A DNA stretch of 24,783 nt from Sphingobacteriaceae bacterium (GCA_035306865.1 DATGNG010000214.1:1-24783); one strand, 5' to 3'. Counted from the first letter of the stretch, positions 1-16,432 are shown. Numbers and translations are program-made. Notes: generated by a model from the letters alone, not told the origin.

Positions 1-50
1 TTATTGATGACGCAATTGCATCCAGGCCCGTGCTACCAGATATTGAATAA
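1..50 (+). CDS. 3' end of upstream gene, probably DHDPS/DapA-family Delta1-pyrroline-4-hydroxy-2-carboxylate deaminase (partial)
   Basis: Frame from base 3 reads IDDAIASRPVLPDIE* (TAA 48-50), 10 nt before the ALDH start. It resembles the C-terminal ..D.(I/L)A.RP.LP.. tail I recall for Bacteroidota DHDPS-family proteins in hydroxyproline clusters. Only 15 codons are visible, so the call rests largely on context. Confidence 0.5.
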   Translation, partial: IDDAIASRPVLPDIE

Positions 51-60
51 ATGAATCCCA

Positions 61-1539
61 ATGGAAATAAATACAACTATTCAAAGTATAGAGAAATTAG
101 TGCAGGAAGCCCAGAGCGCATTCCCGGTACTAAAGAGTAAAAACATTAAAGAACGGGCTGCGCTAATGCACTTGATTGCCGATGAAATAGAGGCATTGGG
201 TGAGGAGCTGACCAAAACGACCAGTGAAGAAACGAATCTGCCACTGGCCCGATTGCAGGGTGAACAGGCCAGAACTGTCTTTCAGTGGCGGAGTTATGCG
301 GATGGATTGGCTGCTGGAACGGCTCTTCCTGTCCGGATTGACACAGCTGCCCCTGATCGCAATCCCCCCAAACCCGATCTCCGTAAATCTTATGTGCCAT
401 TAGGTATTGTTGTGGTATTTGGGGCAAGTAATTTTCCTTACGCCTATTCAACAGCTGGAGGTGATACGGCATCAGCTATTGCGGCCGGCTGCCCGGTGAT
501 TGTCAAAGCCCATCCTGCCCATCCCCGGACATCCGCGATTATGGGGCAAGCTATTGCAAGGGGTATCCGGAAGGCCGGACTACCTTCAGGCCTGTTCGGA
601 CAGGTTTTTAGTGATGGTTTCGAAGCCGGGAATTTTTTAGTTTCCCATCCCTTGGTCAAGGCTGTTGGATTTACAGGTTCATTGACTGGCGGAAAAGCCT
701 TGTTTGACTTAGCTGCAAGACGTCAGGAACCCATTCCGGTTTTTGCTGAGATGGGTAGTGTCAATCCGGTATTTTTGCTTCCCGGGAAACTTAAGTCATC
801 AGGTGAAGAGCTGGCAGGACAATATATTGCCTCATTGACACTTGGGGTGGGGCAGTTTTGCACCAATCCTGGCGTATTGATGGTGCCGGAAAATGAATAT
901 CTTCCTGATTTTATAGGGGCACTCCGGGAAGCGTTACAAAAGATCGCTCCGGTCCCAATGCTGCATCAGGGTATAGCCAACAATTATCAGAAAAACAAGC
1001 AAAGGATAATCGGTCAGGTAGGGGTGGAGTTGATTGCTTCGGTTGCGCCCGGTGAAAAAATACAGGGAAACCCTGCGTTGGTGAAGGTCAAGGCGCAAAA
1101 TTTTCTTTCCAATGATGTTTTGGCAGAAGAAGTGTTTGGCCCATTCGGAATTCTGGTGACTTATAGTGATCAGCAGGAATTGTTGGCTGTTGCCAGGAAG
1201 TTTAATGGGCAATTGACTGCGTCTTTATTGGCAAATGATGAAGAATTGGGACAGTATGGTGAACTTGTGGATATACTGACCACAAAGTGTGGACGGATAT
1301 TGCACAATGGATTCCCTACCGGGGTCGAAGTTGCTTACGCCATGCAACATGGCGGGCCTTTTCCTGCATCCACTGATAGCCGATTTTCTGCAGTAGGGCC
1401 TGATGCTATACAGCGTTTTGCCCGACCGATTAGTTATCAGAATTGGTCCGATGAGTGGCTACCGGATGAGTTGAAAAACAGTAATCCCCTGGACATTTGG
1501 CGGACGATCAATACCGAATACACAAAAGAGCCAATTTGA
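61..1539 (+). CDS. Aldehyde dehydrogenase (NADP+), alpha-ketoglutarate semialdehyde dehydrogenase (KGSADH) type
   Basis: 492 aa. Motifs FGASNFP, GGDTASA, VKAHPAHP, GFTGS, EMGSVNP (catalytic E230), GQFCTNPG (catalytic C267), EEVFGP and HGGPFPAS are typical of the KGSADH-like ALDH subfamily. Adjacent to a hydroxyproline epimerase. Confidence 0.9.
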   Translation: MEINTTIQSIEKLVQEAQSAFPVLKSKNIKERAALMHLIADEIEALGEELTKTTSEETNLPLARLQGEQARTVFQWRSYADGLAAGTALPVRIDTAAPDRNPPKPDLRKSYVPLGIVVVFGASNFPYAYSTAGGDTASAIAAGCPVIVKAHPAHPRTSAIMGQAIARGIRKAGLPSGLFGQVFSDGFEAGNFLVSHPLVKAVGFTGSLTGGKALFDLAARRQEPIPVFAEMGSVNPVFLLPGKLKSSGEELAGQYIASLTLGVGQFCTNPGVLMVPENEYLPDFIGALREALQKIAPVPMLHQGIANNYQKNKQRIIGQVGVELIASVAPGEKIQGNPALVKVKAQNFLSNDVLAEEVFGPFGILVTYSDQQELLAVARKFNGQLTASLLANDEELGQYGELVDILTTKCGRILHNGFPTGVEVAYAMQHGGPFPASTDSRFSAVGPDAIQRFARPISYQNWSDEWLPDELKNSNPLDIWRTINTEYTKEPI

Positions 1540-1560
1540 AAACAAAATAAACTCTAAGCA

Positions 1561-2568
1561 ATGAAGAGGACATTTTCCTGTATTGACGCTCATACCTGTG
1601 GCAATCCGGTCAGACTGGTTTCTGGTGGAGGTCCCAATTTGGTTGGAAATTCCATGATGGAACGACGTTTACATTTTCTGGCAGAATACGATTGGATACG
1701 CAAGGGATTGATGTTTGAACCACGTGGCCATGATATGATGAGCGGTAGTATTTTATACCCCCCTATTGATCCGGAGAATGACGTTGGGGTGCTCTACATT
1801 GAAACCAGCGGGTGTTTACCCATGTGTGGCCATGGCACAATTGGCACGGTAACGATCGCAATCGAAGAGGGTTTGGTGATCCCTAAAATTCCGGGTAAGC
1901 TCCGGCTGGAAACTCCTGCGGGATTGGTTTTGGTAGATTACATGCAGGAGGGCAAAAAAGTCAAATCAGTAAAATTGACCAATATAAAATCTTTTCTGGA
2001 AGCAGAAGGGCTGACAGTAGAATGCCCGGATCTGGGAACCTTGACAGTGGACGTGGCTTATGGTGGTAATTTTTATGCCATCATTGATCCTCAGGAAAAT
2101 TTCAAGGGGATGGAACACTATCATGCAGATCAATTGATCGCATGGAGCAGAGTATGCCGCCAACGCCTCAATGAAAAGTATAGTTTTTTCCATCCGGAAG
2201 ATAAAAACATCAATGGACTGAGCCATATACAATGGACTGGTAAGCCTTTGGACCCTTCTTCAACAGCACGGAATGCGGTGTTTTACGGAGATAAAGCAAT
2301 CGATCGTTCTCCTTGTGGAACAGGTACTTCGGCTCGTATGGCCCAGTGGCACGCGAAAGGAAAGCTCAAGCAAGGGGAGGCTTTTGTCCATGAGAGTATC
2401 ATTGGGTCAAAATTCACAGGTAAGGTGGAACAGGTAGTTGAAAACGCTTTTGGCGATGGACGCCCGGCCATTATACCCAGTATTGAAGGTTGGGCAATGA
2501 TCACAGGTTATAATACTATTTTTATTGATGATGACGATCCGTATGCACATGGATTCCAAGTATTGTGA
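1561..2568 (+). CDS. 4-hydroxyproline 2-epimerase (proline racemase family)
   Basis: 335 aa. Motifs IDAHTCGNPVR, EPRGHDMMSG, GCLPMCGHG (C89), VDVAYGGNFY and DRSPCGTGT (C252). The Cys/Cys pair indicates an epimerase/racemase rather than a Cys/Thr dehydratase. Confidence 0.9.
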   Translation: MKRTFSCIDAHTCGNPVRLVSGGGPNLVGNSMMERRLHFLAEYDWIRKGLMFEPRGHDMMSGSILYPPIDPENDVGVLYIETSGCLPMCGHGTIGTVTIAIEEGLVIPKIPGKLRLETPAGLVLVDYMQEGKKVKSVKLTNIKSFLEAEGLTVECPDLGTLTVDVAYGGNFYAIIDPQENFKGMEHYHADQLIAWSRVCRQRLNEKYSFFHPEDKNINGLSHIQWTGKPLDPSSTARNAVFYGDKAIDRSPCGTGTSARMAQWHAKGKLKQGEAFVHESIIGSKFTGKVEQVVENAFGDGRPAIIPSIEGWAMITGYNTIFIDDDDPYAHGFQVL

Positions 2569-3814
2569 TAAGGTATTGGTGATCGGAGGCGGCATTGCTG
2601 GTTTGGCCTCTGCTTATTACCTTGCAAAAAGCGGGCGGCAAGTGACCCTAATAGAGAGAGGAGACTTGACGGATGGTTGTTCCTTTGGCAATGCGGGCAT
2701 GATTGTCCCCAGCCATTTTACCCCCATGGCAGCTCCGGGAATTGTCTCGCAGGGTATCAAATGGATGTTTGATCGAAAAAGCCCATTTTATGTCAAGCCT
2801 TCCCTCAATTGGTCACTATTGACTTGGGGAATGCGATTCCTGCAACACGCCAATGAAAAGCATGTGCTCCGAGCGTCTCCGGCATTAAAGGACCTGCATC
2901 TTTATAGTAGCCAGCTTTATGATCAATTGGCGACTGAATTAAGTACGGATTTCGACCTGCAACACAAGGGGATTTTGATGCTGTACAAAACAGGCAGTAC
3001 TGAAGAGGAGGAGATTCATTTGGCCAATCGTGCCAGAGATATGGGGCTGGATGTTGCCGTGCTGAACAAAGACGAGGTTCAGGCGCTCGAACCCGGTGTC
3101 AAGCTGGATGTGCTGGGTGCAGTTCATTATAAGTGTGACGGACACTTGTATCCACCTGCACTGATACAAACACTCATCTCAGAATTGAAGAAAATGGGAG
3201 TGGAGTTGCAGACGGGAGTACAGGTAGAAGGTTTTGACTTGAAAGCTGGTCGTATTGAGAAAACCTATCTGTCTGATGGAAGGCAAATTCAAGCAAATCA
3301 AATTGTGCTGACCGGTGGAGCCTGGATGGGCAATTTAGCTCGAAAGGTCAATTTATCGATACCCATCATGCCGGGGAAGGGATATTCCTTTTTGACCGAT
3401 GTTTTTGAAGGAAAAGTACAGCATCCTGCATTGCTAATGGAGGCAAGGGTGGCATTGACGCCCATGGGAGGCAAGGTTCGTATCGGAGGCACTATGGAGC
3501 TCGCTCCCATCGATCATCAGATCAATTTGAATAGAGTGGAAGGGATTGTAAAGGCGGTTGGCTCTTATTATCCTGAGTACAACTTGAATATGCCCGAAAA
3601 GAAAGACATATGGTTTGGTTTCCGGCCCTGCTCACCGGATGGATTGCCTTATCTCGGGTATTCCAGAAAGGTATCCAATTTAGTGCTGGCTGGAGGTTTG
3701 GGAATGATGGGATTGAGCCTTGGACCTGCCATAGGACAGAGTGTCGCAGATCTGATCAATGGCAAAACACTACAGGCTGATATACAAATTTTCGATCCCG
3801 AACGGTTTAATTGA
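2549..3814 (+). CDS. FAD-dependent D-amino acid dehydrogenase (DadA/DAO family), probable cis-4-hydroxy-D-proline dehydrogenase
   Basis: N-terminal VIGGGIAG Rossmann motif, SFGNAG, KGYS, GGTME, GFRPCSPDGLPYLG, GLSLGP and C-terminal FDPERF. Start moved from the track's TTG 2525 to ATG 2549 (MDSKYCDKVLV), which overlaps the epimerase end by 20 nt. Substrate inferred from context. Confidence 0.8.
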   Translation: MDSKYCDKVLVIGGGIAGLASAYYLAKSGRQVTLIERGDLTDGCSFGNAGMIVPSHFTPMAAPGIVSQGIKWMFDRKSPFYVKPSLNWSLLTWGMRFLQHANEKHVLRASPALKDLHLYSSQLYDQLATELSTDFDLQHKGILMLYKTGSTEEEEIHLANRARDMGLDVAVLNKDEVQALEPGVKLDVLGAVHYKCDGHLYPPALIQTLISELKKMGVELQTGVQVEGFDLKAGRIEKTYLSDGRQIQANQIVLTGGAWMGNLARKVNLSIPIMPGKGYSFLTDVFEGKVQHPALLMEARVALTPMGGKVRIGGTMELAPIDHQINLNRVEGIVKAVGSYYPEYNLNMPEKKDIWFGFRPCSPDGLPYLGYSRKVSNLVLAGGLGMMGLSLGPAIGQSVADLINGKTLQADIQIFDPERFN

Positions 3815-3844
3815 TTGTTTTACGGAATACTTTAATTGTTTGAT

Positions 3845-4783
3845 ATGTTGTTTATTGATGATGATAGGATCAGAGAAGCGTTGGATTACCCCCAATTGAT
3901 AGAGGCGCTCAGAAAAATATTTCTTTCTGAATACACTATGAAACTGCGTCACCATCATTTTTATCAAAGTGAATCTGGTTCTGAGAATGCTTTGATTCTG
4001 ATGCCCGTTTGGAATAAAGAGTTTATGGGCATCAAGCAAGTGATTGTTGCTCCGGACAACCACAAGATAGGATTGCCTTCAATTTCTGCTCAATATACAT
4101 TGTTGGACACACAAACTGGAAGGGTTTTGGCCCTAATGAATGCTACTGAGCTTACCGCAAGACGTACTGCCTGCACTTCTGCACTTGCTGCTTCTTATTT
4201 AGCACCGTTAGACGCCAGTGATCTGTTGGTAGTAGGTGGAGGAAGTGTGGCAAAGCATTTGGTTCAAGCACACAATGTTGTGAGAAACTATACGAATATC
4301 AAAGTATGGATGCGAAATCCTGATAAGAAGCAAGTTTTTGTAAAGGAATTGCAGGATCAAGGATATTCGGTTGAGGCAGCTGAAGATTTGGAGGTTGCGG
4401 TCAAACAAGCGGATGTAATCTCCTGTGCGACCCTTTCAGCCGATCCTATCATAAAGGGAAGCTGGATCAAAAAGGGAACCCATCTCGACCTGATCGGTTC
4501 ACATAAACCAGATACCAGAGAGGTAGATGATGAAGCCATAAGCAGGGCAGCGGTATTTGTTGACTCTCGGATGGGAGCGCTGCATGAGACAGGTGAATTG
4601 GCCATCCCGATCGCTTCAGGATTGCTGAAAGAAGAAGATGTGCTGGCCGATATTACTCAATTGGTGAGCGGGCAGCACCCGGGCAGGAGAAATAAAGAGG
4701 AAATTACATTATTTAAGTCTGCGGGTCTCGCGGTTGAAGATTTGGCAGCGGCACTTTTGGTCTATCAAACCGTAGTGGGATAA
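3845..4783 (+). CDS. Ornithine cyclodeaminase / mu-crystallin family protein (candidate Delta1-pyrroline-2-carboxylate / imine reductase)
   Basis: Motifs LILMPVW, ELTARRTACTSALA, VGGGSVA, ADVISCAT, HLDLIGS and ITLFKSAGLAVEDLAAA. ATG 3845 preferred over the track's TTG 3836, giving 312 aa. Confidence 0.85.
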   Translation: MLFIDDDRIREALDYPQLIEALRKIFLSEYTMKLRHHHFYQSESGSENALILMPVWNKEFMGIKQVIVAPDNHKIGLPSISAQYTLLDTQTGRVLALMNATELTARRTACTSALAASYLAPLDASDLLVVGGGSVAKHLVQAHNVVRNYTNIKVWMRNPDKKQVFVKELQDQGYSVEAAEDLEVAVKQADVISCATLSADPIIKGSWIKKGTHLDLIGSHKPDTREVDDEAISRAAVFVDSRMGALHETGELAIPIASGLLKEEDVLADITQLVSGQHPGRRNKEEITLFKSAGLAVEDLAAALLVYQTVVG

Positions 4784-4875
4784 GAAATACAGACTGCAAC
4801 GATATTTTTACTGTAAAATGGGTTATTTGGGATACGGAAGCACGGCTCTGCTAAGGTTCTATGTTGATTATAACT

Positions 4876-4883
4876 TATATTTG
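4876..4883 (+). promoter_or_regulatory. Bacteroidota housekeeping promoter -7 element upstream of the DUF885-APC-S9 genes
   Basis: TATATTTG matches TAnnTTTG, 68 nt before ATG 4952. No clean -33 TTTG at the canonical spacing. Confidence 0.5.
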
Positions 4884-4951
4884 CTTTTATCGAAGGGTTC
4901 GCACGGACTATTCGAAATGAATATTAAAAAACCATTTATATACCAATCAAT

Positions 4952-6724
4952 ATGATGAAAAAAATTATTTCAATTTTTTTAAGCTGTGGATTCTTTGCGG
5001 TAACCACCAATGCACAGCCCTCTGCCAATATTGACAAGCTTTATGAACAAGCCAGTGAAGTTTCCGGTTTGGTCGTAAAATATGCCAATGACGCAGGCGC
5101 AATCCAATATTTTTATGGCCCCATGACTGCTGGCTTTGGTGGCCGTGGTGGGGGAGGAGTAAATTCGCCCGAACAACTGGAGCGCTTGATGAAGCTAAAT
5201 CAATCGTATCTGGATGAGTTGAAAAAGTTAGATTTCAATAGTTACAGTATCCATGGAAAAGTGGATTATGTGTTGTTGAAATCGAGGATTGAACGTCAAC
5301 AGGAAAGTTTGAAGCGTCAAAAGGAGACTTATTCCAAGATTGCAGGCTATTTACCATTTGCACAAACTATCTATGATTTTGAAAAGAATCGTAGGAGAGG
5401 GACCTCTGTGGATGGGGAACAGATTGCTGGTGAGTTGCATCAGGCTACGCTCGAATTGCAACAGATCAGTGGAAAACTGAAAGCTGAAAAAGAGATTGAT
5501 TCTGAACTTGCCGATTATCTGGATGCGACTGTGCGGGATTTGAGAAATAGGCTTCAAAGCGCTTTCAATTTTTATAATGGTTATGAGCCCCTGTTTACGT
5601 GGTGGGTACCGGAGCCCTTTAAGGCACTGGACAAGGAATTAGAAAATTATGTAACCCTGGTGCGTTCCAAAAGTGATGCAAAAGTGTTTGACGATGGTTC
5701 GAACATAGGAGGGAAACCAATTGGCAGGGAGGAAATGACCCGGCAATTGTTGGATGAAATGATTCCATACTCACCCGATGATCTGCTGCGTTTGGCCGAA
5801 CAGGAATTTGCCTGGTGTGAGGCTGAGTTGCTAAAAGCTTCTCGGGAAATGGGTTTTGGAGATGACTGGAAAGCTGCACAAGAGCAAGTCAAGAACTCTT
5901 ACGTTGCTCCCGGAAAACAACCCGAAACCATAATAGAACTTAATCAGGCCGCTATCGACTTTATCAATGAGCGGGATTTGCTCACCATGCCTGATCTGTC
6001 ACATGAAACCTGGGGTATGGTGATGATGACCCCACAACAGCAGGAAGTAAGTCCCTTCTTTTTGGGAGGGCGTAATATTATGATCGCTTACCCCACCAAT
6101 GAGATGAGCCATGAGCGCAAGCTGATGAGTATGCGTGGTAATAACCCCTTTTTCTCCAGAGGAATAGTGCAGCACGAATTGGTACCGGGCCATCACTTAC
6201 AATATTTTATGAATAGCCGTTACAAAGCTTATAGGGGAGAAAATTTCAGAACTCCTTTTTGGACAGAAGGATGGACCTTGTACTGGGAATTGTTGTTGTA
6301 CGATTTGGGCTTCCCCAAAACTCCGGAAGAGCGTATCGGTATGTTGTTCTGGCGCATGCATCGTTGTGCACGGATCACGTTTTCTATCAAATACCACCTC
6401 GGTGAATGGACTCCTCAGCAATGTATTGACTATCTGGTAGATCGGGTCGGCCACGAACCGTCCACTGCACATGGTGAAGTGAAGCGTTCCTTTGAAGGAA
6501 ATTATGGCCCGCTTTATCAGTTGGCTTATCTGGTGGGCGGATTGCAGGTTTGGAGCCTCAAACATGAATTGGTGGACAGTGGACGCATGCCGATCAAGGA
6601 ATTCCACGATCGCTTTATGAAGGAAAACTACATGCCGATTGAGATGTTGCGTGCCACACTGACCAATCAGAATATCAGTCGGGACTTCAAGAGCAGCTGG
6701 AAGTTTTATGACTTCAAAAACTAG
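4952..6724 (+). CDS. DUF885 family exported protein, putative zinc metallopeptidase
   Basis: 590 aa. Sec-type signal peptide (MKKIISIFLSCGFFAVTTNA/Q), DUF885 hallmarks HELVPGHHLQ (H408-H415) and downstream WTEGW (E439), plus LFWRMHRCAR and EVKRS..YQLAY. Confidence 0.85.
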   Translation: MMKKIISIFLSCGFFAVTTNAQPSANIDKLYEQASEVSGLVVKYANDAGAIQYFYGPMTAGFGGRGGGGVNSPEQLERLMKLNQSYLDELKKLDFNSYSIHGKVDYVLLKSRIERQQESLKRQKETYSKIAGYLPFAQTIYDFEKNRRRGTSVDGEQIAGELHQATLELQQISGKLKAEKEIDSELADYLDATVRDLRNRLQSAFNFYNGYEPLFTWWVPEPFKALDKELENYVTLVRSKSDAKVFDDGSNIGGKPIGREEMTRQLLDEMIPYSPDDLLRLAEQEFAWCEAELLKASREMGFGDDWKAAQEQVKNSYVAPGKQPETIIELNQAAIDFINERDLLTMPDLSHETWGMVMMTPQQQEVSPFFLGGRNIMIAYPTNEMSHERKLMSMRGNNPFFSRGIVQHELVPGHHLQYFMNSRYKAYRGENFRTPFWTEGWTLYWELLLYDLGFPKTPEERIGMLFWRMHRCARITFSIKYHLGEWTPQQCIDYLVDRVGHEPSTAHGEVKRSFEGNYGPLYQLAYLVGGLQVWSLKHELVDSGRMPIKEFHDRFMKENYMPIEMLRATLTNQNISRDFKSSWKFYDFKN

Positions 6725-8111
6725 TGGGTTTAAAGCCTCGCTGACACTGACAGACGCAACGATGTTGGTGGCCGGGAGCATGATCGGCTCCGGTATTTTT
6801 ATTGTGAGCGCGGATATTGCGCGCAATACAGGAAGTGCCGGGTGGTTGATGCTCGTCTGGGCAATTACCGGATTCATGACCTTAACTGCAGCATTGAGTT
6901 ACGGAGAGCTGAGCTCTATGTTTCCCAGGGCAGGAGGGCAATATGTTTATTTGAAAGAAGCATATAACCCTTTGGTCAGTTTTGTGTTTGGCTGGACCTT
7001 CTTTACCATTATCCAAACGGCTACTATTGCCGCGGTAGGAGTGGCGTTTGCTAAGTTTACTGCCTATCTGATACCTCAACTTGATGAGGATATAATCGTA
7101 GCTGACCTTGGTTTTCTGCAAATTTCCTCAGCACAACTGGTATCTATAGCGGTTATCCTTCTTTTGACCATTGTCAATACCCGTGGGGTCAATTCTGGCA
7201 AGACAGTACAAACTTTTTTCACCTTTGTCAAAATCGCCAGTTTGCTTGGTTTGGTGCTGTTTGGGTTCTTTGCTTTTAATCCTGAAGTTTGGCAAAACAA
7301 CTGGAGTGGAGGCAATGCATGGAATCTCCGACACCTTTCTGTTGATGGTACACTTAGCGATTATACGCTGTTTGCCGCACTGGGAGCGGTTGCTGCCGGG
7401 ATGGTGGGTGCGATTTTCAGTAGTGATTCCTGGCACAGCTCTTCCTCAGTGGCTGCAGAAATCAAAAATCCAAGCCGCAATGTGGGCCTGAGCCTGGCAT
7501 TGGGAACGATAATAGTGACTGTAGTCTATTTGTTGACTAACCTTATGTACACTGGTGTAGTGTCCATGGAAGAAATGGCAGCAGCGGACAAAGACCGGGT
7601 CGCCATTACTGTTGCCCAGCAAATATTCGGTCCTGTTGGAATAACTGTGATAGCTGTTATGATAATGGTTTCGACCTTCGGTTGTAACAATGGTTTGATC
7701 ATGGCTGGTGCAAGGGTTTATTATTCCATGGCTGAGGACGGTCTGTTTTTCAAGAAGGTAGGGACGCTCAATAAATTCTCCGTACCAGCAGTAGCTCTTT
7801 GGTTGCAATGCCTTATTGCTTCGATCTGGAGCCTAAGTGGGAAATACGGGGATCTACTGGATATGATTTCTATGGTGGTCGTCATTTTCTACGTATTGGC
7901 TATTATTGGAATCTTTAAACTACGTAAGACAAGACCAGATCTGCCCCGGCCCTATAAAGCATTTGGCTATCCGGTATTGCCGTTTATTTATATACTGATG
8001 GGAACCGCCTTTTGTGTGTTGATGGTTATTTATAAACCGGATTATACTTGGCCGGGGATTGTGATTGCTTCATTGGGTATTCCGGTGTATTACCTGATCA
8101 AAAGAAAATAA
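6708..8111 (+). CDS. APC superfamily amino acid permease
   Basis: 467 aa with many hydrophobic segments. Motifs GSMIGSGIF, SYGELSSMFPRAGGQYVYL, AEIKNPSRN, GARVYYSMAEDGLFF and PRPYKAFGYP. Overlaps the DUF885 stop by 17 nt. Confidence 0.92.
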   Translation: MTSKTSGFKASLTLTDATMLVAGSMIGSGIFIVSADIARNTGSAGWLMLVWAITGFMTLTAALSYGELSSMFPRAGGQYVYLKEAYNPLVSFVFGWTFFTIIQTATIAAVGVAFAKFTAYLIPQLDEDIIVADLGFLQISSAQLVSIAVILLLTIVNTRGVNSGKTVQTFFTFVKIASLLGLVLFGFFAFNPEVWQNNWSGGNAWNLRHLSVDGTLSDYTLFAALGAVAAGMVGAIFSSDSWHSSSSVAAEIKNPSRNVGLSLALGTIIVTVVYLLTNLMYTGVVSMEEMAAADKDRVAITVAQQIFGPVGITVIAVMIMVSTFGCNNGLIMAGARVYYSMAEDGLFFKKVGTLNKFSVPAVALWLQCLIASIWSLSGKYGDLLDMISMVVVIFYVLAIIGIFKLRKTRPDLPRPYKAFGYPVLPFIYILMGTAFCVLMVIYKPDYTWPGIVIASLGIPVYYLIKRK

Positions 8112-8133
8112 GTACAGTAAAACCTCCTAAATT

Positions 8134-10368
8134 ATGAAACAGTTTATTTCTATTCTTTTTGTTGTTATTTCTCCTTTTCTGTTACTTGCGCAGGGAACTT
8201 TGACCGACTATCAACGTGCTGCGGAAATGAAAGAGAAACTGCGGCACAAGCTTTACCATGAGCCTGCCGGAATAGTGTGGGGTGCGGAAGAACATTTTTT
8301 TTACAAAACCCTAACGCCACAAGGTGAACAGTTTTATTTAGTGGATGCCAAAAATCATAATAAAAGGTTACTTTTTGATCCGGCACCTTTTGTCACGGCC
8401 CTTGCGGCCCAGTCAGGTCAGCAGGTGGATGCCAACTCCTTGCCTATCACAAACTTGAAAGTTGATCCTCAATCCATGATAATGGACTTTGTGTCTTTTG
8501 GAAAGCAGTGGCAGTATGATCCTGAAGGTAAGGTGTTGACTGAAGGAGAGGCAGTAACAAGCCGGACGGGACAACAAGGATATTGGGGCAGACGGTTTGA
8601 TGAACGGGAAGGTGATCCCATTCCCTCACCAGATGGGAAATGGAAAGTATATATCAAAAATAGCAATGTCTATGTAAGCCTTGCTAATGGAGAACAGGAA
8701 AAACAGTTGAGTTATGACGGTTCTCCCGGTGAATATTATTCGGCACGTATTTTTTGGTCTTCGGATTCGGAACATCTTGCGGTCAATCGGATTCGACCTG
8801 GAGGGCAACGTACTCTTTATCTGCTCGAATCTTCGCCTCTTGATCAGCTTCAGCCCAAATTGCATACCCGGGATTATCTGAAGCCAGGCGATGCCCTTCA
8901 GCAGAAGCAACCCCATTTATTTCATGTGGACAAGGGTTTGGTCGGCAAGATCGATGCCACACTGATCAGCAATCAGTATAATTTGACCAATCCGGTTTGG
9001 CGTGCCGATGGCCGTGAATTCACGGTGGAGTACAATCAGCGGGGACATCAGCAGTACAGTGTATTCGCATTGGATGAAACCGGTAAAACCAGAGAAGTAA
9101 TTCGCGAAACCAGCCAAACCTTTATACATTATAGTGCCAAGAACTATAGGTATGATGTGTCGGATGGAAAAGAGATTATTTGGGCATCTGAACGGGATGG
9201 ATGGAATCATTTGTATTTATATGATGGAGAGACAGGACGGGTAAAAAATCAAATCACCAGTGGCGAATGGGTTGTGCGGCGAGTAATCCATGTTGATACG
9301 GTTTCCCGAAGGATCCTTTTTGAAGGAAGCGGCCGTCATGCTGATCAGGATCCTTATTTTATCCATTATTATTCCATAGGCTTTGACGGACGTGATCTCC
9401 GGGAGCTAACCACTGAGAACGGTAACCACCGTGCTACTTTTTCACCTGATTACTCTTATTTCATTGACCAATGGTCACGCCTTGACCAACCTTCCAGGAC
9501 GGTACTTAGAAACACCTCTGATGGTCGTATCCTTATGGAATTGGAAGAAGCTGATATTAGCAATCTGCTCGCTACTGGTTGGCAGATGCCAGAGGTTTTT
9601 GCTGCCAAAGGTAGGGATGGCACAACAGATATCTGGGGTATGATCCTCCGTCCATCCAATTTCGACCCCAACAAGAGTTATCCGGTGATCGAATATATCT
9701 ATGCCGGCCCACATGATTCTTTTGTTCCCAAAAATTTTATGGCCGAATCACGAATTGGATTGTTCGAATTGGTTGAGCTTGGATTTATTGTGGTACAAAT
9801 AGATGGCATGGGAACCTCCAATCGTTCCAAAGCCTTTCATGATGTTATATATCAAAACCTGAAAGACAGCGGATTCCCAGATCGAATCCTATGGATGAAA
9901 GCGGCGGCACAAAAATACCCTTATATGGATTTGGATAGGGTGGGAATCTTTGGCAGTTCAGCCGGAGGCCAAAGCTCAGCCGGAGCCTTACTGCACCATC
10001 CCGACTTTTACAAAGTAGCGGTTTCCTCTTCGGGATGCCACGACAACCGAATGGACAAAATATGGTGGAATGAACAGTTTATGGGCTTTCCAATCGGTGA
10101 ACATTATGCTGAATCCTCCAACATCACGCATGCCCACAAATTGGAAGGTAAATTGTTATTGATCTTGGGTGAAATGGATGACAATGTCGATCCCGCCTCT
10201 ACCCTTCAACTGGTCAATGCCATTATCAAAGCCAATAAGTACGTGGATCTTTTGTTTATTCCGGGGATGGGGCACTCAATGGGCGGCGAATATGGTGAAC
10301 ACAGGCGAAGGGACTTCTTTGTCAAGCACCTTATTGGTATAGATCCACCTGAGTGGAATTTGTTTTGA
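8134..10368 (+). CDS. S9 family serine peptidase (DPP-IV-like beta-propeller plus alpha/beta hydrolase), exported
   Basis: 744 aa with signal peptide (..LLLA/Q). Motifs YIYAGP, DGMGT, nucleophile elbow GSSAGG (S609), EMDDNV (D682) and GMGH (H714). Confidence 0.92.
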   Translation: MKQFISILFVVISPFLLLAQGTLTDYQRAAEMKEKLRHKLYHEPAGIVWGAEEHFFYKTLTPQGEQFYLVDAKNHNKRLLFDPAPFVTALAAQSGQQVDANSLPITNLKVDPQSMIMDFVSFGKQWQYDPEGKVLTEGEAVTSRTGQQGYWGRRFDEREGDPIPSPDGKWKVYIKNSNVYVSLANGEQEKQLSYDGSPGEYYSARIFWSSDSEHLAVNRIRPGGQRTLYLLESSPLDQLQPKLHTRDYLKPGDALQQKQPHLFHVDKGLVGKIDATLISNQYNLTNPVWRADGREFTVEYNQRGHQQYSVFALDETGKTREVIRETSQTFIHYSAKNYRYDVSDGKEIIWASERDGWNHLYLYDGETGRVKNQITSGEWVVRRVIHVDTVSRRILFEGSGRHADQDPYFIHYYSIGFDGRDLRELTTENGNHRATFSPDYSYFIDQWSRLDQPSRTVLRNTSDGRILMELEEADISNLLATGWQMPEVFAAKGRDGTTDIWGMILRPSNFDPNKSYPVIEYIYAGPHDSFVPKNFMAESRIGLFELVELGFIVVQIDGMGTSNRSKAFHDVIYQNLKDSGFPDRILWMKAAAQKYPYMDLDRVGIFGSSAGGQSSAGALLHHPDFYKVAVSSSGCHDNRMDKIWWNEQFMGFPIGEHYAESSNITHAHKLEGKLLLILGEMDDNVDPASTLQLVNAIIKANKYVDLLFIPGMGHSMGGEYGEHRRRDFFVKHLIGIDPPEWNLF

Positions 10369-10420: not shown

Positions 10421-11866
10421 CTATTTAATTCCCATAAAGATCCGGTTCCAGCGGATTTTGTCCAGGAAGGTGCCATGTTGGTCAAGGCTTAGCCAGACAA
10501 ACATGGCCTTGCCTACAATATGATCTTCCGGGACAAAGCCCCAAACCCTCGCATCTTCTGAATTGTGGCGGTTGTCACCCATCATCCAGTAATAGTCCAT
10601 TTGGAAGGTGTATTCGGTCGCCGGTGAGCCGTTGAGATAGTACAGTCCGTCTGCCTCCCGCTGCTCCAGCTCATTGCCCTCATAGACCCGGATGGCACGC
10701 TCATAGATGGGATAACTCATGCTGTCCAGATTGACGGTCCAACCCTTTTGGGGTACAATGACCGGACCGAAATTGTCCATATTCCAGGGGTGGAGCTCAC
10801 TGATTTTATCACGGGTGCTCGGGAAAACACCCAATTCGGGGGTGTTTTCGGGGCGGATCGCCGGGACTATTTTGGAGACATTGGCCCATCCGGCCACTTC
10901 TTCGTAGGTTTTTTCGGTTAGAAAAAGAAGGTAGGGTTCACGGAATTGGAGATTGCTCTCAATCCGAAGGTCGAGTAATCGCTGGGCATTGAGACCAGAC
11001 CCGTCAGTATAGACCAAATATTCCATTTGGCCCTGAGGCGGATTAAAGCCTTTTTCTCCATTGACAAAAACCTGAGCCATCAGAAGGCTGATTGTATCGC
11101 CAGGAATACCGATAGCCCTTTTGATATAATTCTCGCGTTTGTCTATTGGGCGGTTGAATGGGGCATCTGCTTCCATGGGGAAGTTGAATACCACCACATC
11201 ATTTCGTTTGATTTCCTGAAAGCCCGGGAGACGTTTATATCCAATTTTAATCCCTTCCCAGTACGCCTTTCCTCCGGTCAATGGCATAGTGTGATGGGCA
11301 AAGGGGAAGGCTACGGGTGTCATGGGTACCCTGGGACCGTAATTTAGTTTAGAGACGAACAGAAAGTCGCCGACCAACAGGCTTTTTTCCATAGAGCCTG
11401 TAGGGATCATATAAGCCTCTATGAGAAAGCCACGGATCAGGGTTGCGGCAACTACTGCAAATACAATTGCGTCCGCCCACTCGCGGGCAAATGATTTTTT
11501 ATAAGGATGTTTTTCCTTGAATGCCGGAGTAGCCGATTGACCCAGGTACTGCACCTGTTTGTCATTGCCCCAAAGAGGCAAAACGACAAAAGGCAGAAGG
11601 ATCGTAGCCGAATATTCCCAAAAGCGTCTTTTTCCAAAAGATTTGACCAGATCCAGATATAGGCCAAAGAAAATAAAAATATTGACAATAGGGATAAGCA
11701 ATAATGCAAGCCACCAGATCGGCCTTCCTGTAACCTTATGGGAAATGATATGTTCCCTGTACAATGGAATCAGGGATTCCCAGCCGGCCCGCCCAGCTTT
11801 GACAAAAAGTTTCCACAATCCAATATGGATCAGTACTAATAGTATCGCAAAAATCAAATATCCCAT
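10421..11866 (-). CDS. lepB: Signal peptidase I with N-terminal DUF5684-like membrane domain
   Basis: 481 aa. S26 motifs IPTGSMEKSLLVGDFLFVSK (catalytic Ser), ENYIKR (catalytic Lys) and MMGDNRHNSEDARVWGFVP. N-terminus LWKLFVKAGRAGWESLIPLY..FGK resembles DUF5684. Confidence 0.95.
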   Translation of the reverse strand: MGYLIFAILLVLIHIGLWKLFVKAGRAGWESLIPLYREHIISHKVTGRPIWWLALLLIPIVNIFIFFGLYLDLVKSFGKRRFWEYSATILLPFVVLPLWGNDKQVQYLGQSATPAFKEKHPYKKSFAREWADAIVFAVVAATLIRGFLIEAYMIPTGSMEKSLLVGDFLFVSKLNYGPRVPMTPVAFPFAHHTMPLTGGKAYWEGIKIGYKRLPGFQEIKRNDVVVFNFPMEADAPFNRPIDKRENYIKRAIGIPGDTISLLMAQVFVNGEKGFNPPQGQMEYLVYTDGSGLNAQRLLDLRIESNLQFREPYLLFLTEKTYEEVAGWANVSKIVPAIRPENTPELGVFPSTRDKISELHPWNMDNFGPVIVPQKGWTVNLDSMSYPIYERAIRVYEGNELEQREADGLYYLNGSPATEYTFQMDYYWMMGDNRHNSEDARVWGFVPEDHIVGKAMFVWLSLDQHGTFLDKIRWNRIFMGIK

Positions 11867-13351: not shown

Positions 13352-14298
13352 TACCAATCCAATAATTCCAAAATCCGGTTTAGGTCATCTTCTGAATTAA
13401 ACGGGATTTCAATAGCTCCTTTTCCTTTTTTTTCCTGCAACTTCAATTTCACCCGGGTCGCAAATCGGGAAGCCAGATCGTCTTCGATTTTCTGATATTG
13501 AAAAGACAGGCCAGCGGGCGTTTTTCCGCTGGAATTTTTGATATTTTTCCCTTGCTGGATTTCCCGGACGATCTCTTCGGTTTTTCGGACGGAGAGGCTA
13601 TTTTTTAGCACCTCGCGGAATACGTAAAGCTGCTGGTCCACTTCGGGCAGATTGACCAGGGCACGGGCGTGACCCATACTCAAGTTTCCATCCCGTATGG
13701 CTGCCTGAATGACCGGAGGCAATCTCAATAGTCGAAGATAATTGGTGACCGTCGATCTGTTTTTGCTGACCCGTTCGCCCAGTTCTTCTTGTTTGAGATT
13801 GAGCTCTTCTATCATTCGTTGAAAACTCAGCGCCACTTCAATGGCATTCAGATTTTCCCGTTGAATATTTTCGATCAAGGCCATTTCCAGCATTTGCTGG
13901 TCATTGGCTGTCCTGATATAGGCCGGAATGGTATTAAGACCAGCCAGTTTAGAGGCCCTGAGCCTGCGTTCACCACTGATGAGTTGGTAATTTCCAGATG
14001 CATCCTGCCTCACCGTAATCGGTTGGATCAAACCCTGCATACGGATGGAGTCGGCCAATTCTTCCAGGGCTTCCTGGTCAAAATCGGTCCTGGGTTGGAA
14101 AGGGTTGACTGCGATCCTATTGATTTCGATCTCATAAATTCCACCCGGTCCCGGATAATCCGAATCTTTTGGCATATTACCAGAAAGGGCTGGGGATTTT
14201 TGGCTGCCAGTGTTCGGTCTTGCCAAAACCTCTTCCGAATCATTCAATAGGGCGCTGAGTCCCTTTCCAAGTCCAATTTTTCTTTGTTGTGCAGCCAT
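13351..14298 (-). CDS. parB: ParB/Spo0J chromosome partition protein
   Basis: 315 aa. Motifs GLGKGLSAL, NPFQPR, GLIQPI, ISGERRLRA (CTP-binding box), ALIENIQRENLN, HTH region SKNRSTVTNYLRLL and GHARAL. Confidence 0.97.
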   Translation of the reverse strand: MAAQQRKIGLGKGLSALLNDSEEVLARPNTGSQKSPALSGNMPKDSDYPGPGGIYEIEINRIAVNPFQPRTDFDQEALEELADSIRMQGLIQPITVRQDASGNYQLISGERRLRASKLAGLNTIPAYIRTANDQQMLEMALIENIQRENLNAIEVALSFQRMIEELNLKQEELGERVSKNRSTVTNYLRLLRLPPVIQAAIRDGNLSMGHARALVNLPEVDQQLYVFREVLKNSLSVRKTEEIVREIQQGKNIKNSSGKTPAGLSFQYQKIEDDLASRFATRVKLKLQEKKGKGAIEIPFNSEDDLNRILELLDW

Positions 14299-14299
14299 A

Positions 14300-15097
14300 T
14301 TAAATACTTGCCTCTTCTTTTTCCACCGTGATCAGCCCATTTTTCTGCAATAGTTCTCTTGCCAGATTCAGGTAATTGATTGCACCCTTACTATTGGCAT
14401 CGTGCATGATCACCGATACCCCAAAGCTGGGTGCTTCACTCAAGCGGGTGTTGCGCTGGATGATCGTATCGAAAACCAAATCGTTGAAATGTGATCGTAC
14501 CTCTTCCACAACCTGATTGGCCAAACGTAGCCTGGCATCATACATCGTCAATAATATTCCTTCAATTTCCAGATCTGTATTGAGCCGGTTCTGAACGATT
14601 TTAATGGTGTTCAATAATTTTCCCAAGCCCTCCAATGCAAAATATTCACATTGTACGGGAATAATGACCGAATTGGCCGCTGTGAGGGCATTGATGGTGA
14701 TCAGGCCCAGTGATGGTGAACAGTCGATAATGATAAAATCATATTGATCCTTGACCTGATCAAGCATTTGCCTCATTTTGAATTCCCGTTCATGCAAATT
14801 GATCATTTCGATTTCTGCACCGACCAAATCTATGTGGGCAGGCAGTAAATCAAGATGAGGGGTTTCGGTGGCCTGAATAGCTTCACTGGCAGGTAAACCG
14901 TTTACTATACATTCATAAACGCTTGACTTGATGGTGCGGGGATCAAAGCCCAGTCCCGATGTGGAGTTGGCCTGTGGGTCTGCATCCACCAATAACGTGC
15001 GGTATTCCAATACAGCCAGGCTGGCCGCCAGATTGATGGAGGAAGTTGTTTTTCCGACTCCGCCTTTTTGGTTGGCTATAGCAATGATTTTGCCCAT
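14300..15097 (-). CDS. parA: ParA/Soj ATPase
   Basis: 265 aa. Deviant Walker A NQKGGVGKTT, LVDADPQAN, IDCSPSLG, PVQCEYFALEG and RLSEAPS. Confidence 0.97.
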   Translation of the reverse strand: MGKIIAIANQKGGVGKTTSSINLAASLAVLEYRTLLVDADPQANSTSGLGFDPRTIKSSVYECIVNGLPASEAIQATETPHLDLLPAHIDLVGAEIEMINLHEREFKMRQMLDQVKDQYDFIIIDCSPSLGLITINALTAANSVIIPVQCEYFALEGLGKLLNTIKIVQNRLNTDLEIEGILLTMYDARLRLANQVVEEVRSHFNDLVFDTIIQRNTRLSEAPSFGVSVIMHDANSKGAINYLNLARELLQKNGLITVEKEEASI

Positions 15098-16159: not shown

Positions 16160-16432
16160 ATGGCTTCAACATCATTAGTACAGGCAAGGATAGAACCAGC
16201 CATCAAAGAAAAAGCTGAAAGTTATTTTCAGGCGTTCGGTATGGACACGGCTACTGCTATCCGTATATTTTTTGCAAAAGTAGCAGAAACGGGCAGCATA
16301 CCCTTTAAAATCGGTATTGAACCTGAAGATCTGGAAGATGCCAGAATAGCCGAAATAGCATATAGGGAGTATGAAAGTAGTGGGAAAAAATCACGTCCTT
16401 TTTCTGAACTCGTCAAAGAACTCGATCTATGA
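16160..16432 (+). CDS. Type II antitoxin, RelB/DinJ family (ribbon-helix-helix)
   Basis: 90 aa. VQARIEPAIKEKAESYFQAFGMDTATAIRIFFAKVAETGSIPF is the RelB/DinJ RHH signature. Acidic C-terminus. ATGA overlap with the toxin. Confidence 0.9.
   Translation: MASTSLVQARIEPAIKEKAESYFQAFGMDTATAIRIFFAKVAETGSIPFKIGIEPEDLEDARIAEIAYREYESSGKKSRPFSELVKELDL

What the first reader, a model, noticed from the sequence alone, without database searches (positions are those of the whole stretch)
1..10368. Candidate collagen / hydroxyproline-peptide utilisation locus: Hyp catabolism linked to two exported peptidases and a permease
Seen: eight co-oriented genes with short or overlapping junctions, apart from one 168-nt gap carrying a -7 promoter box. 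Established: epimerase, D-Hyp dehydrogenase, DHDPS-family deaminase and KGSADH form the trans-4-hydroxy-L-proline to 2-oxoglutarate route known from Pseudomonas, Sinorhizobium and Azospirillum. Inference: the DUF885 protein, APC permease and S9 peptidase supply the upstream steps, releasing Hyp from Gly-Pro-Hyp (collagen) or extensin peptides in the periplasm and importing it. This would be a peptide analogue of a Bacteroidota polysaccharide utilisation locus, and I do not know of a characterised example with this composition. SusC/SusD and an AraC regulator might lie upstream of the window.
Basis: partly seen in the sequence, partly recalled or inferred. Interest (0 to 1): 0.75.

Follow-up and report, generated by a model that had tools for sequence, protein, structure and literature searches.

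The report
Hydroxyproline-peptide scavenging and catabolism locus
A compost/soil Parapedobacter keeps the known genes for burning hydroxyproline next to two exported peptidases (one from the uncharacterised DUF885 family) and an amino-acid permease; relatives repeat this pairing, often with SusC/SusD importers and extensin-type sugar-removing enzymes behind the same DNA switch, so it probably harvests hydroxyproline from protein fragments, more likely plant cell-wall glycoproteins than collagen.

Summary
The window carries the 3' tail of a DHDPS-family gene, then ALDH, 4-Hyp epimerase, FAD D-amino-acid dehydrogenase, an OCD-family Pyr2C reductase, a 168-nt gap with a TAnnTTTG box, DUF885, an APC/LAT permease and an S9 peptidase.

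A neighbouring contig (C28) overlaps the window start. It supplies the rest of the DHDPS gene, an AraC regulator and a 21-bp-period direct-repeat operator, but no SusC/SusD.

The inferred link between the DUF885-APC-S9 block and Hyp catabolism is supported:
- Of the 80 closest DUF885 loci, 60 have HypE, 71 the permease and 64 the S9 gene within 10 kb.
- All 16 sampled Bacteroidia genomes with this DUF885 subfamily have HypE, against 30 of 400 overall.
- The same operator precedes unlinked DUF885 blocks and SusC genes.
- Natural DUF885-S9 fusion proteins exist in both orders.
- The DUF885 model resembles M32 and ACE zinc carboxypeptidases.

Relatives add SusC/SusD, GH127, GH27, DUF5695 and M24, which points to plant hydroxyproline-rich glycoproteins rather than collagen. 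This genome holds a stripped-down version. The enzyme specificities remain inferred.

This scan has noted DUF885/peptidase-Hyp loci before on other DNA. I found no published description.

The parts
1..50 (+). 3' end (16 codons plus TAA) of a DHDPS-family gene, the candidate Pyr4H2C deaminase. The rest is on contig C28 (L003:3642-4555), preceded there by an AraC gene (L003:2654-3533) and the operator (L003:3529-3556).
   Evidence: The end of C28 matches window 1-69 at 67/69, and both mismatches are synonymous. Pfam DHDPS 202 bits, AraC HTH_18. P. defluvii shows the same AKR-patatin-DHDPS-ALDH order. Contigs of two other metagenomes run 869 and 1011 nt beyond window position 1.
61..1539 (+). Aldehyde dehydrogenase, candidate alpha-ketoglutarate semialdehyde dehydrogenase (Cys267, Glu230).
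   Evidence: Pfam Aldedh 144 bits; no NCBIfam equivalog reached. Nearest structures 3V4C and 1EYY. Sits next to DHDPS/HypE in 57 of 80 related loci.
1561..2568 (+). 4-hydroxyproline 2-epimerase (Cys89/Cys252 pair); possibly also a trans-3-Hyp dehydratase.
   Evidence: NF010578 594 bits against a cut-off of 376; Pro_racemase 437 bits. Cys positions. Promiscuity inferred from PMC4113996.
2549..3814 (+). FAD-dependent D-amino-acid dehydrogenase/oxidase, candidate cis-4-D-Hyp dehydrogenase. The start is uncertain (2525-2549).
   Evidence: Pfam DAO 232 bits; NF001933 247 bits, below its cut-off. Conserved after HypE in 60 of 80 loci.
3836..4783 (+). OCD/mu-crystallin family Delta1-pyrroline-2-carboxylate reductase (Pyr2C to L-proline).
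   Evidence: NF004793 398 bits against a cut-off of 322. Nearest named structure 6T3E, a Pyr2C reductase, E 1e-54. Present in 11 of 80 loci, before DUF885 or after S9.
4784..4951 (+). 168-nt intergenic region with a Bacteroidota -7 box TATATTTG at 4876-4883. No AraC-type operator, no terminator.
   Evidence: Sequence. Best PWM score -8 bits. No terminator-like site; fold z-score -0.6. The -7 box aligns with those of other Parapedobacter.
4952..6724 (+). Exported DUF885 protein, a putative zinc (gluzincin-like) carboxypeptidase or oligopeptidase. Motif HELVPGHH at residues 408-415 (nt 6173-6196); conserved E439 and E446.
   Evidence: Pfam DUF885 148 bits. H408, E439 and E446 invariant, E409 and H414 nearly so, in 35 homologues of 26-54% identity. 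AF2 model pLDDT 91. Fold matches: DUF885 structures Z 30-33, then M32 carboxypeptidase BsuCP Z 13.2 over 350 residues, ACE Z 8.7, M3 PepF Z 6.5.
6708..8111 (+). APC-superfamily, LAT/SLC7-like amino-acid permease with about 12 hydrophobic segments; candidate Hyp/Pro importer or exchanger.
   Evidence: AA_permease_2 215 bits. Nearest structures are SLC7 light chains and BasC 6F2G. Hydropathy. Immediately follows DUF885 in 71 of 80 loci.
8134..10368 (+). Exported S9 serine peptidase (DPPIV_N propeller plus alpha/beta-hydrolase domain). Ser609, Asp682/683, His714. Subfamily motif GCHDNRMDK at residues 634-642.
   Evidence: Pfam DPPIV_N 155 bits and Peptidase_S9 152 bits. Nearest structure is P. 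gingivalis prolyl tripeptidyl peptidase 2D5L, E 4e-59. Positions. Present in 64 of 80 loci. Orthologous domain fused to DUF885 in P0021 and P0029.

Best explanation
This is a compact version of a hydroxyproline utilisation regulon that is widespread in Sphingobacteriaceae. Shown by homology: an AraC-type regulator and its direct-repeat operator (on the adjoining contig) precede DHDPS-ALDH-HypE-DAO, the known route trans-4-Hyp -> cis-4-D-Hyp -> Pyr4H2C -> alpha-KGSA -> 2-oxoglutarate. An OCD-family Pyr2C reductase can return Pyr2C (from trans-3-Hyp if the epimerase is promiscuous, or from D-Pro oxidation) to L-proline. Inferred: the three downstream genes are the supply line. In the periplasm the S9 peptidase (related to DPP4 and prolyl tripeptidyl peptidase, but with an altered S1 pocket) and the DUF885 protein (M32/ACE-like zinc carboxypeptidase fold) cut short Pro/Hyp-rich peptides down to free amino acids. 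The LAT-type permease then imports Hyp and Pro. In this genome the block is probably transcribed both by read-through from the Hyp-controlled promoter and from its own -7 box promoter. In relatives the same regulon also contains SusC/SusD, GH127, GH27, DUF5695 and M24 Xaa-Pro peptidase, so the native substrate of the system is most likely plant (or algal) hydroxyproline-rich glycoprotein fragments, with gelatin-type peptides also possible. This organism, which is found in soil, compost, manure and landfill metagenomes, retains only the peptide and amino-acid end of the system.
For: Gene identities. Linkage: 80 DUF885 orthologue loci with APC 71, S9 64, HypE 60, DHDPS 61, AraC 52, SusC-like 48, M24 38; GH127 in 17 and DUF5695 in 31. 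Phyletic pattern: this DUF885 subfamily occurs in 16 of 400 sampled Bacteroidia genomes and all 16 have HypE (30 of 400 overall). They fall in 5 families, all among the 9 families that have HypE. The two genes lie within 10 kb in 7 of the 16. Other families show different gene orders with the same parts: HypE-DAO-APC-S9-GH127-DUF885-DUF5695, and DHDPS-ALDH-HypE-DAO next to S9-GH127-DUF885-GH127-SusD-SusC. Regulation: a PWM trained only on DHDPS promoters gives 48 further hits of at least 16 bits, against 0.67 expected. These lie before SusC, before unlinked DUF885 blocks in five Sphingobacterium genomes, and before araC. Fusions: single ORFs join this DUF885 subfamily to this S9 subfamily (46-47% identity to the window's S9) in both orders; one carries a VHL beta domain. 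Fold. Metagenomic representatives again sit beside Pro_racemase-DAO, SusCD, DUF5695, S9, M24 and M1 genes. Habitat and weak RNA signal.
Against: No enzyme activity, transport or induction has been measured. The window's own gap upstream of DUF885 has no operator (best -8 bits), and the only strong operator in the assembled genome is the one before DHDPS. Five Parapedobacter genomes keep DUF885-APC-S9 38-79 kb away from the Hyp operon, or on another contig, with only a degenerate repeat upstream. About half of the sampled genomes have DUF885 unlinked from HypE, sometimes with no peptidase neighbours. S9 orthologues occur in 4 sampled genomes where HypE was not found. DUF885 has HExxPGH rather than HExxH, and its M32 match (Z 13) is at the level where helical proteins can match by chance. 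The nearest relative, P. defluvii, lacks S9, OCD and AraC. The genome is a 75%-complete MAG, so absence of SusCD, GH127 or M24 is not established.
Confidence: 0.65

Rival explanations
1. The DUF885-APC-S9 block is a general module for scavenging proline-rich peptides or amino acids. It sits beside the Hyp operon only because both deal with imino acids, and Hyp is not its specific product.
For: The block stands alone, away from Hyp genes, in several Parapedobacter. There is no operator in the window's gap. S9 orthologues occur in 4 genomes where HypE was not found. Some DUF885 relatives sit beside unrelated peptidases M28, S10, M4 or M20.
Against: All 16 sampled genomes with this DUF885 subfamily have HypE. 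Strong operators of the Hyp-operon type precede unlinked DUF885 blocks in Sphingobacterium. The subfamily recurs with the Hyp-glycan enzyme GH127. A VHL beta domain occurs in one fusion.
Confidence: 0.17
2. The locus is specifically a collagen/gelatin (Gly-Pro-Hyp) utilisation system, as the finding's title says.
For: The nearest solved relative of the S9 protein is P. gingivalis prolyl tripeptidyl peptidase. M61 glycyl aminopeptidase occurs in 2 related loci and M24 Xaa-Pro peptidase in 38. The OCD gene fits use of 3-Hyp, a collagen residue (my knowledge). The organism occurs in animal faeces and compost.
Against: No collagenase (M9 or U32) appears in any locus inspected. The recurrent accessory genes are plant-glycan enzymes (GH127, GH27) plus the uncharacterised DUF5695 that travels with them. 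The PTP residues that form the S1 pocket, and Glu636, are not conserved.
Confidence: 0.1
3. DUF885 is not a peptidase. It may be a binding or scaffold protein for the S9 enzyme, or it may hydrolyse another bond, for example in Hyp-O-glycopeptides.
For: It lacks a canonical HExxH. No DUF885 member has a reported activity. It is often flanked by glycosidases rather than peptidases. Fusion to S9 would also fit a non-catalytic accessory role.
Against: His, Glu and His plus two downstream Glu residues are invariant or nearly so across 26-54% identity. Whole-length fold matches are to three gluzincin peptidase families, M32, M2 and M3. Pfam places the family in clan Peptidase_MA (PMC12572635). One relative is fused to an M14 carboxypeptidase.
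Confidence: 0.08

Closest known systems
Bacterial trans-4-hydroxy-L-proline pathway (Pseudomonas LhpA/B/C/G, Sinorhizobium hyp cluster, Azospirillum)
   Same: Epimerase, FAD D-Hyp dehydrogenase, DHDPS-family deaminase and ALDH are clustered and regulated together.
   Different: The regulator here is AraC-type. Import is by an APC/LAT permease gene instead of an ABC system. Two exported peptidase genes are in line with the catabolic genes.
Composite 4HypE/t3HypD genome neighbourhoods (Zhao et al. 2014, eLife, PMC4113996)
   Same: One proline-racemase-family gene is flanked by DAAO, DHDPS and ALDH and also by an OCD-family Pyr2C reductase. That paper reads this pattern as a physiologically promiscuous epimerase/dehydratase.
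   Different: In the passages I searched, that study mentions peptidase neighbours only for Bacilli t3HypD clusters and does not mention DUF885, permeases or Bacteroidetes.
Porphyromonas gingivalis prolyl tripeptidyl peptidase PTP-A / DPP4 (S9B), with the RagAB (SusCD-type) peptide importer
   Same: An exported S9 enzyme with a DPPIV_N propeller and an intact Ser-Asp-His triad. Relatives pair it with SusC/SusD genes.
   Different: Only about 30% identity over the aligned part. PTP's S1-pocket residues and Glu636 are replaced by the subfamily motif GCHDNRMDK. The DPP4 double-Glu anchor is not evident. No SusCD lies in this genome's locus.
Bifidobacterium longum HypBA1/HypBA2/HypAA system for Hyp-linked beta-L-arabinooligosaccharides (GH127, GH121, GH43)
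   Same: Relatives of this locus carry GH127 genes next to DUF885 and S9, so they target the same plant glycoprotein decoration.
   Different: The bifidobacterial system harvests the sugars. The loci here add peptidases and full Hyp catabolism, and this window has no glycosidase at all.
M32 carboxypeptidases (TaqCP, BsuCP 3HQ2) and ACE (M2)
   Same: Whole-length helical two-lobed fold, and a His/Glu metal-site region followed by a conserved Glu helix.
   Different: No detectable sequence similarity. The motif is HExxPGH rather than HExxH. The protein is exported. No activity is known.

Membership tests
trans-4-Hyp to 2-oxoglutarate pathway | 4-Hyp 2-epimerase of the proline racemase family with a Cys/Cys catalytic pair | tested here: met
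   NF010578 594 bits (cut-off 376); Cys89 and Cys252.
trans-4-Hyp to 2-oxoglutarate pathway | FAD-dependent cis-4-D-Hyp dehydrogenase/oxidase (DAO family) | tested here: inconclusive
   Pfam DAO 232 bits, but no NCBIfam model reaches its cut-off. Assigned by position after HypE in 60 of 80 loci.
trans-4-Hyp to 2-oxoglutarate pathway | DHDPS-family Pyr4H2C deaminase | tested here: met
   Pfam DHDPS 202 bits for L003:3620-4555. Only its last 50 nt lie in the window. The contig join rests on a 67/69 overlap and on synteny. Substrate specificity was not tested.
trans-4-Hyp to 2-oxoglutarate pathway | alpha-ketoglutarate semialdehyde dehydrogenase | tested here: inconclusive
   It is an ALDH-superfamily member with catalytic Cys and Glu. 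The KGSADH equivalog NF042993 scores 80 bits against a cut-off of 770. Assigned by context only.
trans-3-Hyp pathway | Dedicated trans-3-Hyp dehydratase (Cys/Thr proline-racemase paralogue) | tested here: not met
   There is only one racemase-family gene, and it is Cys/Cys. Dehydratase activity would have to come from promiscuity (PMC4113996).
trans-3-Hyp pathway | Pyr2C reductase (OCD or MLD2 family) | tested here: met
   NF004793 398 bits against a cut-off of 322; 6T3E E 1e-54.
Bacteroidota polysaccharide/peptide utilisation locus (PUL) | Adjacent SusC/SusD (RagA/RagB) gene pair in the locus | tested here: not met
   None in the window or on C28. The best SusC match elsewhere in the MAG is 33% identical. 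The feature is met in many relatives: SusC-like genes in 48 of 80 loci.
S9B dipeptidyl/tripeptidyl peptidases (DPP4, PTP-A) | DPPIV_N propeller plus catalytic Ser-Asp-His | tested here: met
S9B dipeptidyl/tripeptidyl peptidases (DPP4, PTP-A) | Conserved hydrophobic S1 proline pocket and acidic N-terminus anchor (PTP Glu636; DPP4 Glu-Glu) | tested here: not met
   In the HMMER alignment to 2D5L, PTP's W, Y, E and Y positions are N, D, K and W in the window protein. The Glu-Glu region is not conserved among orthologues. This rests on a sequence alignment only.
Gluzincin metallopeptidases (clan MA; M32/M2/M3-like) | HExxH zinc motif plus a downstream Glu ligand | tested here: inconclusive
   A variant motif HELVPGH (H408, E409, H414) with invariant E439 and E446. 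The ligand geometry could not be inspected.
Gluzincin metallopeptidases (clan MA; M32/M2/M3-like) | Two-lobed helical oligopeptidase fold | tested here: met
   BsuCP Z 13.2 over 350 residues, ACE Z 8.7 over 360, PepF Z 6.5 over 304, all spanning the whole model. Z 13 is borderline for helical proteins.
APC superfamily, L-type amino acid transporter subfamily | AA_permease fold with 12 transmembrane segments; a subfamily model above its cut-off | tested here: inconclusive
   AA_permease_2 215 bits and about 12 hydrophobic segments. TIGR00911 scores 205 bits against a cut-off of 702. The substrate was not testable.

The most novel reading that the evidence does not exclude
This DUF885 subfamily is the missing periplasmic zinc carboxypeptidase or dipeptidase that frees hydroxyproline from Hyp-rich peptides, which ordinary peptidases handle poorly. 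It works as a two-enzyme unit with a Hyp-adapted S9 peptidase; the two are literally fused in some phyla. Together with SusC/SusD, GH127, GH27 and DUF5695 under one AraC-type switch, they form an undescribed Bacteroidota utilisation system for plant hydroxyproline-rich glycoproteins, in which both the sugar and the amino-acid part are consumed.
Probability: 0.35. Interest if true: 0.75.

Novelty: new variant of a known kind. Interest (0 to 1): 0.6.

Why it matters
Hydroxyproline-rich glycoproteins (extensins, arabinogalactan proteins) and collagen are large pools of organic nitrogen and carbon in soil, compost and guts. How bacteria strip and digest their protease-resistant Hyp-rich cores is poorly described.

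The comparative evidence gives three leads:
- A concrete, testable substrate hypothesis for DUF885, a family with thousands of sequence clusters and three solved structures but no known function.
- A distinct S9 subfamily to test for Hyp specificity.
- An AraC-type operator that can be used to map the whole regulon in cultured Sphingobacterium, Mucilaginibacter and Parapedobacter strains.

It also extends the PUL concept from glycans to a glycopeptide whose amino-acid part feeds a dedicated catabolic pathway.

Tried and rejected
- **Own-genome searches.** I looked in the MAG for the SusC orthologue, M24 Xaa-Pro peptidase, GH127 and DUF5695. None was found, but the MAG is 1.9 Mb and 75% complete, so this shows nothing about absence.
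- **Operator in the 168-nt gap.** None was found. The alignment with other Parapedobacter gaps shows that only the -7 box is shared. A PWM scan of the whole MAG gave one strong site only, at C28:3529.
- **Structured RNA or terminator in the gap.** Neither was found. Rfam and tRNA scans of the window gave only tRNA-Gln.
- **Sequence-profile link from DUF885 to characterised peptidases.** There is none beyond the three structural-genomics entries. The ESM Atlas returned only DUF885 clusters.
- **Literature.** DUF885 appears in 17 papers, none on function. Searches for a Hyp, extensin or collagen PUL in Bacteroidota found nothing relevant.
- **Transcription evidence.** One sludge metatranscriptome holds short contigs of a 90-97% identical relative on ALDH, OCD, DUF885, APC and S9. 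None spans the gap, and DNA carry-over cannot be excluded.
- **Binding test.** I did not run complex prediction on DUF885 and S9, because I do not claim that the separate proteins bind.

Full report
**What is in the window**

The window is one whole contig (C214) of a 1.9-Mb, 75%-complete MAG. ORF listing and Pfam/NCBIfam scans give these features on the + strand:
- 1-50: a 50-nt gene stub
- 61-1539: an aldehyde dehydrogenase
- 1561-2568: a 4-hydroxyproline epimerase (NF010578, 594 bits against a cut-off of 376; Cys89/Cys252)
- about 2549-3814: a DAO-family FAD dehydrogenase
- 3836-4783: an OCD/mu-crystallin protein that passes the curated model for Pyr2C/Pip2C reductase (398 bits against 322; nearest named structure 6T3E)
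- 4784-4951: a 168-nt gap
- 4952-6724: a DUF885 protein
- 6708-8111: an APC permease of the LAT/SLC7 type
- 8134-10368: an S9 peptidase with a DPPIV_N propeller

Junctions are short or overlapping, apart from the gap. The gap carries TATATTTG at 4876-4883.

The rest of the window is housekeeping: lepB, dapB, DUF5683, parB, parA, pth, L25, prs, tRNA-Gln and others. The finding's text lists seven functions and leaves out the OCD gene. The DHDPS gene is represented only by its last 16 codons.

**Upstream contig**

The last 69 bases of contig C28 match window 1-69 at 67/69, and both differences are synonymous. C28 encodes rplS, an aldo-keto reductase, a patatin-like lipase, an AraC-family regulator (L003:2654-3533) and the DHDPS-family gene whose stop codon is window 48-50.

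Two further observations support the join:
- The nearest relative, a Parapedobacter defluvii MAG, has the same AKR-patatin-DHDPS-ALDH order.
- Contigs from two other metagenomes run 0.9-1.0 kb past the window's first base.

Its guess of an upstream SusC/SusD is not.

**Is the peptidase-permease block tied to Hyp genes?**

A scan of one genome per species returned 80 loci that encode DUF885 proteins 56-88% identical to this one. Nearly all are from Parapedobacter, Sphingobacterium and Mucilaginibacter. I ran tblastn with the window's proteins against the 10-kb flanks. It finds:

| Gene | Loci out of 80 |
|---|---|
| APC permease | 71 |
| S9 | 64 |
| DHDPS | 61 |
| HypE | 60 |
| DAO | 60 |
| ALDH | 57 |
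| AraC | 52 |

In an even sample of 400 Bacteroidia genomes, this DUF885 subfamily occurs in 16 and HypE in 30. All 16 DUF885 genomes have HypE. They belong to 5 families, all among the 9 families with HypE. By my arithmetic the chance of that is about 4e-6, although relatives are not independent. The two genes lie within 10 kb in 7 of the 16 genomes.

Two other families carry the same parts in different orders:
- HypE-DAO-APC-S9-GH127-DUF885-DUF5695
- DHDPS-ALDH-HypE-DAO facing S9-GH127-DUF885-GH127-SusD-SusC

The link is not obligatory. Five Parapedobacter genomes keep DUF885-APC-S9 38-79 kb from an AraC-DHDPS-ALDH-HypE-DAO operon, or on another contig. In several families DUF885 stands alone. 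S9 orthologues of at least 45% identity occur in 12 sampled genomes, and HypE was found in 8 of them.

**Regulation**

A motif search on 60 promoters upstream of DHDPS gave a direct repeat, GTTAAwAT-N13-GaTTAAAt. It has a 21-bp period, as AraC-family sites do. On C28 it lies at L003:3529-3556 (20.5 bits), about 30 nt before a TACATTTG -7 box.

I scanned the 80 loci with this matrix. There were 105 sites of at least 16 bits, against 0.67 expected in shuffles. Of these, 57 are the training sites. The other 48 lie before SusC genes, before araC, and before DUF885 in five Sphingobacterium genomes where the block is not next to Hyp genes (23-29 bits). That is independent evidence for one regulon.

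That the AraC protein binds this site is an inference. The window's own gap has no such site (best -8 bits), and the MAG has no second strong site. No terminator follows the OCD gene. The likeliest arrangement here is read-through from the regulated promoter plus a local promoter.

**What the two exported proteins may do**

*S9 protein.* Its nearest solved relative is P. gingivalis prolyl tripeptidyl peptidase (E 4e-59), and it keeps Ser609, Asp682/683 and His714. The PTP residues that line the proline pocket, and Glu636, are replaced by a conserved subfamily motif, GCHDNRMDK. It is therefore a distinct S9 subfamily of untested specificity.

*DUF885 protein.*
- It has no characterised relative by sequence.
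- Thirty-five homologues of 26-54% identity keep H408, E439, E446, R471 and R474 invariant, and E409 and H414 nearly so.
- A confident model (pLDDT 91) matches the three DUF885 structures at Z 30-33. It then matches, over its whole length, the M32 carboxypeptidase BsuCP (Z 13.2), ACE (Z 8.7) and oligoendopeptidase F (Z 6.5).
- These three gluzincin families all act on short peptides, and M32 and ACE cut from the C-terminus.

*Fusions.* An exhaustive search found 358 clusters at E of 1e-30 or better. Among them are natural proteins that fuse this DUF885 subfamily to this S9 subfamily in both orders. One fusion is a single 4266-nt ORF in two assemblies. One carries a VHL beta domain, the fold that binds hydroxyproline in human pVHL, at 29.5 bits against a cut-off of 21. 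Another DUF885 relative is fused to an M14 carboxypeptidase.

I read this as two peptidases that work in sequence on the same short peptides. The permease is an amino-acid carrier rather than a peptide carrier, which fits free Hyp and Pro as the imported product.

**Which substrate?**

Relatives add the following:
- SusC-like genes in 48 of 80 loci, with SusD found in at least 28
- M24 Xaa-Pro peptidase in 38
- DUF5695 in 31
- GH127 beta-L-arabinofuranosidase in 17
- GH27 in 12
- M61 glycyl aminopeptidase in 2

Metagenomic DUF885 representatives again sit beside Pro_racemase-DAO, SusCD, DUF5695, GH39, S9, M24 and M1 genes.

GH127 removes the beta-L-arabinofuranose that decorates Hyp in extensins (stated in PMC4454575; also my knowledge of HypBA1). 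No collagenase gene was seen in any locus. The family-wide system therefore looks aimed at plant or algal hydroxyproline-rich glycoproteins. Collagen-type peptides remain possible but are not indicated.

This genome shows only the peptide and amino-acid end. It occurs in soil, animal faeces, compost, landfill and fungus-associated metagenomes.

**The OCD gene**

Zhao et al. (PMC4113996) showed that racemase-family enzymes flanked by both DAAO/DHDPS/ALDH and OCD can be physiologically promiscuous, acting as both 4-Hyp epimerase and trans-3-Hyp dehydratase. That is the best reading here. It was not tested, and reduction of Pyr2C from D-proline oxidation is an alternative.

OCD is present in 11 of 80 loci. 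In two Parapedobacter genomes it travels with the DUF885 block. The window therefore looks like a junction of the two units.

**Novelty**

The catabolic genes are known. I found no publication that assigns a role to DUF885 or that describes a Bacteroidota locus joining Hyp catabolism to peptidases, SusCD and GH127.

This scan's earlier notes describe similar pairings on other genomes. I tested the pairing independently here. New in this report are the operator, the fusions, the phyletic count and the fold match.

I class the finding as a new variant of known kinds (a Hyp operon plus PUL-like supply genes), with a functional lead for a large domain of unknown function.

Noticed in passing
L003 (contig C28) 1546-2586, minus strand: A patatin-like phospholipase lies directly upstream of araC. 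It scores 178 bits on the CBASS cGAMP-activated lipase model (cut-off 200), and no cyclase is visible on the 4.6-kb contig. The same gene abuts DHDPS in P. defluvii, where araC is missing.
   Followed up: no
window 16160-16432 and 16429-16695, + strand: A small overlapping gene pair (90 and 88 aa) that looks like a RelB/DinJ-type antitoxin with a RelE-type toxin. It lies in an otherwise ORF-poor kilobase between an FMN reductase gene and pth.
   Followed up: partly
L041 (P. defluvii MAG) 13675-14940: The closest relative has a HipA-family toxin gene where this window has the S9 peptidase. It also lacks the OCD and AraC genes, so gene content at this locus changes quickly between close relatives.
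   Followed up: partly
L100:5551-8241, L016:1343-4054, L114:6385-9180 and 31 of the 80 related loci: DUF5695 (about 850-930 aa, unknown function) is a recurrent member of the regulon. It is often divergent from araC with an operator between them, or it lies next to DUF885 or GH127. It is a candidate new glycosidase for Hyp-linked glycans.
   Followed up: partly
P0033 residues 120-177; P0029 residues 729-777: Some S9-DUF885 fusion proteins carry a VHL beta domain inserted ahead of the propeller (29.5 bits in P0033, weak in P0029). The window's S9 protein lacks it.
   Followed up: partly
window 10421-11866, minus strand: Signal peptidase I carries an N-terminal DUF5684 membrane domain (481 aa). 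It is followed by dapB, a DUF5683 gene, parB and parA.
   Followed up: no
whole genome G000: The MAG is 1.9 Mb at 75% estimated completeness, which implies about 2.5 Mb. Cultured Parapedobacter genomes are 4.6-6 Mb, so either the lineage is streamlined or the bin is more incomplete than the marker estimate suggests.
   Followed up: no
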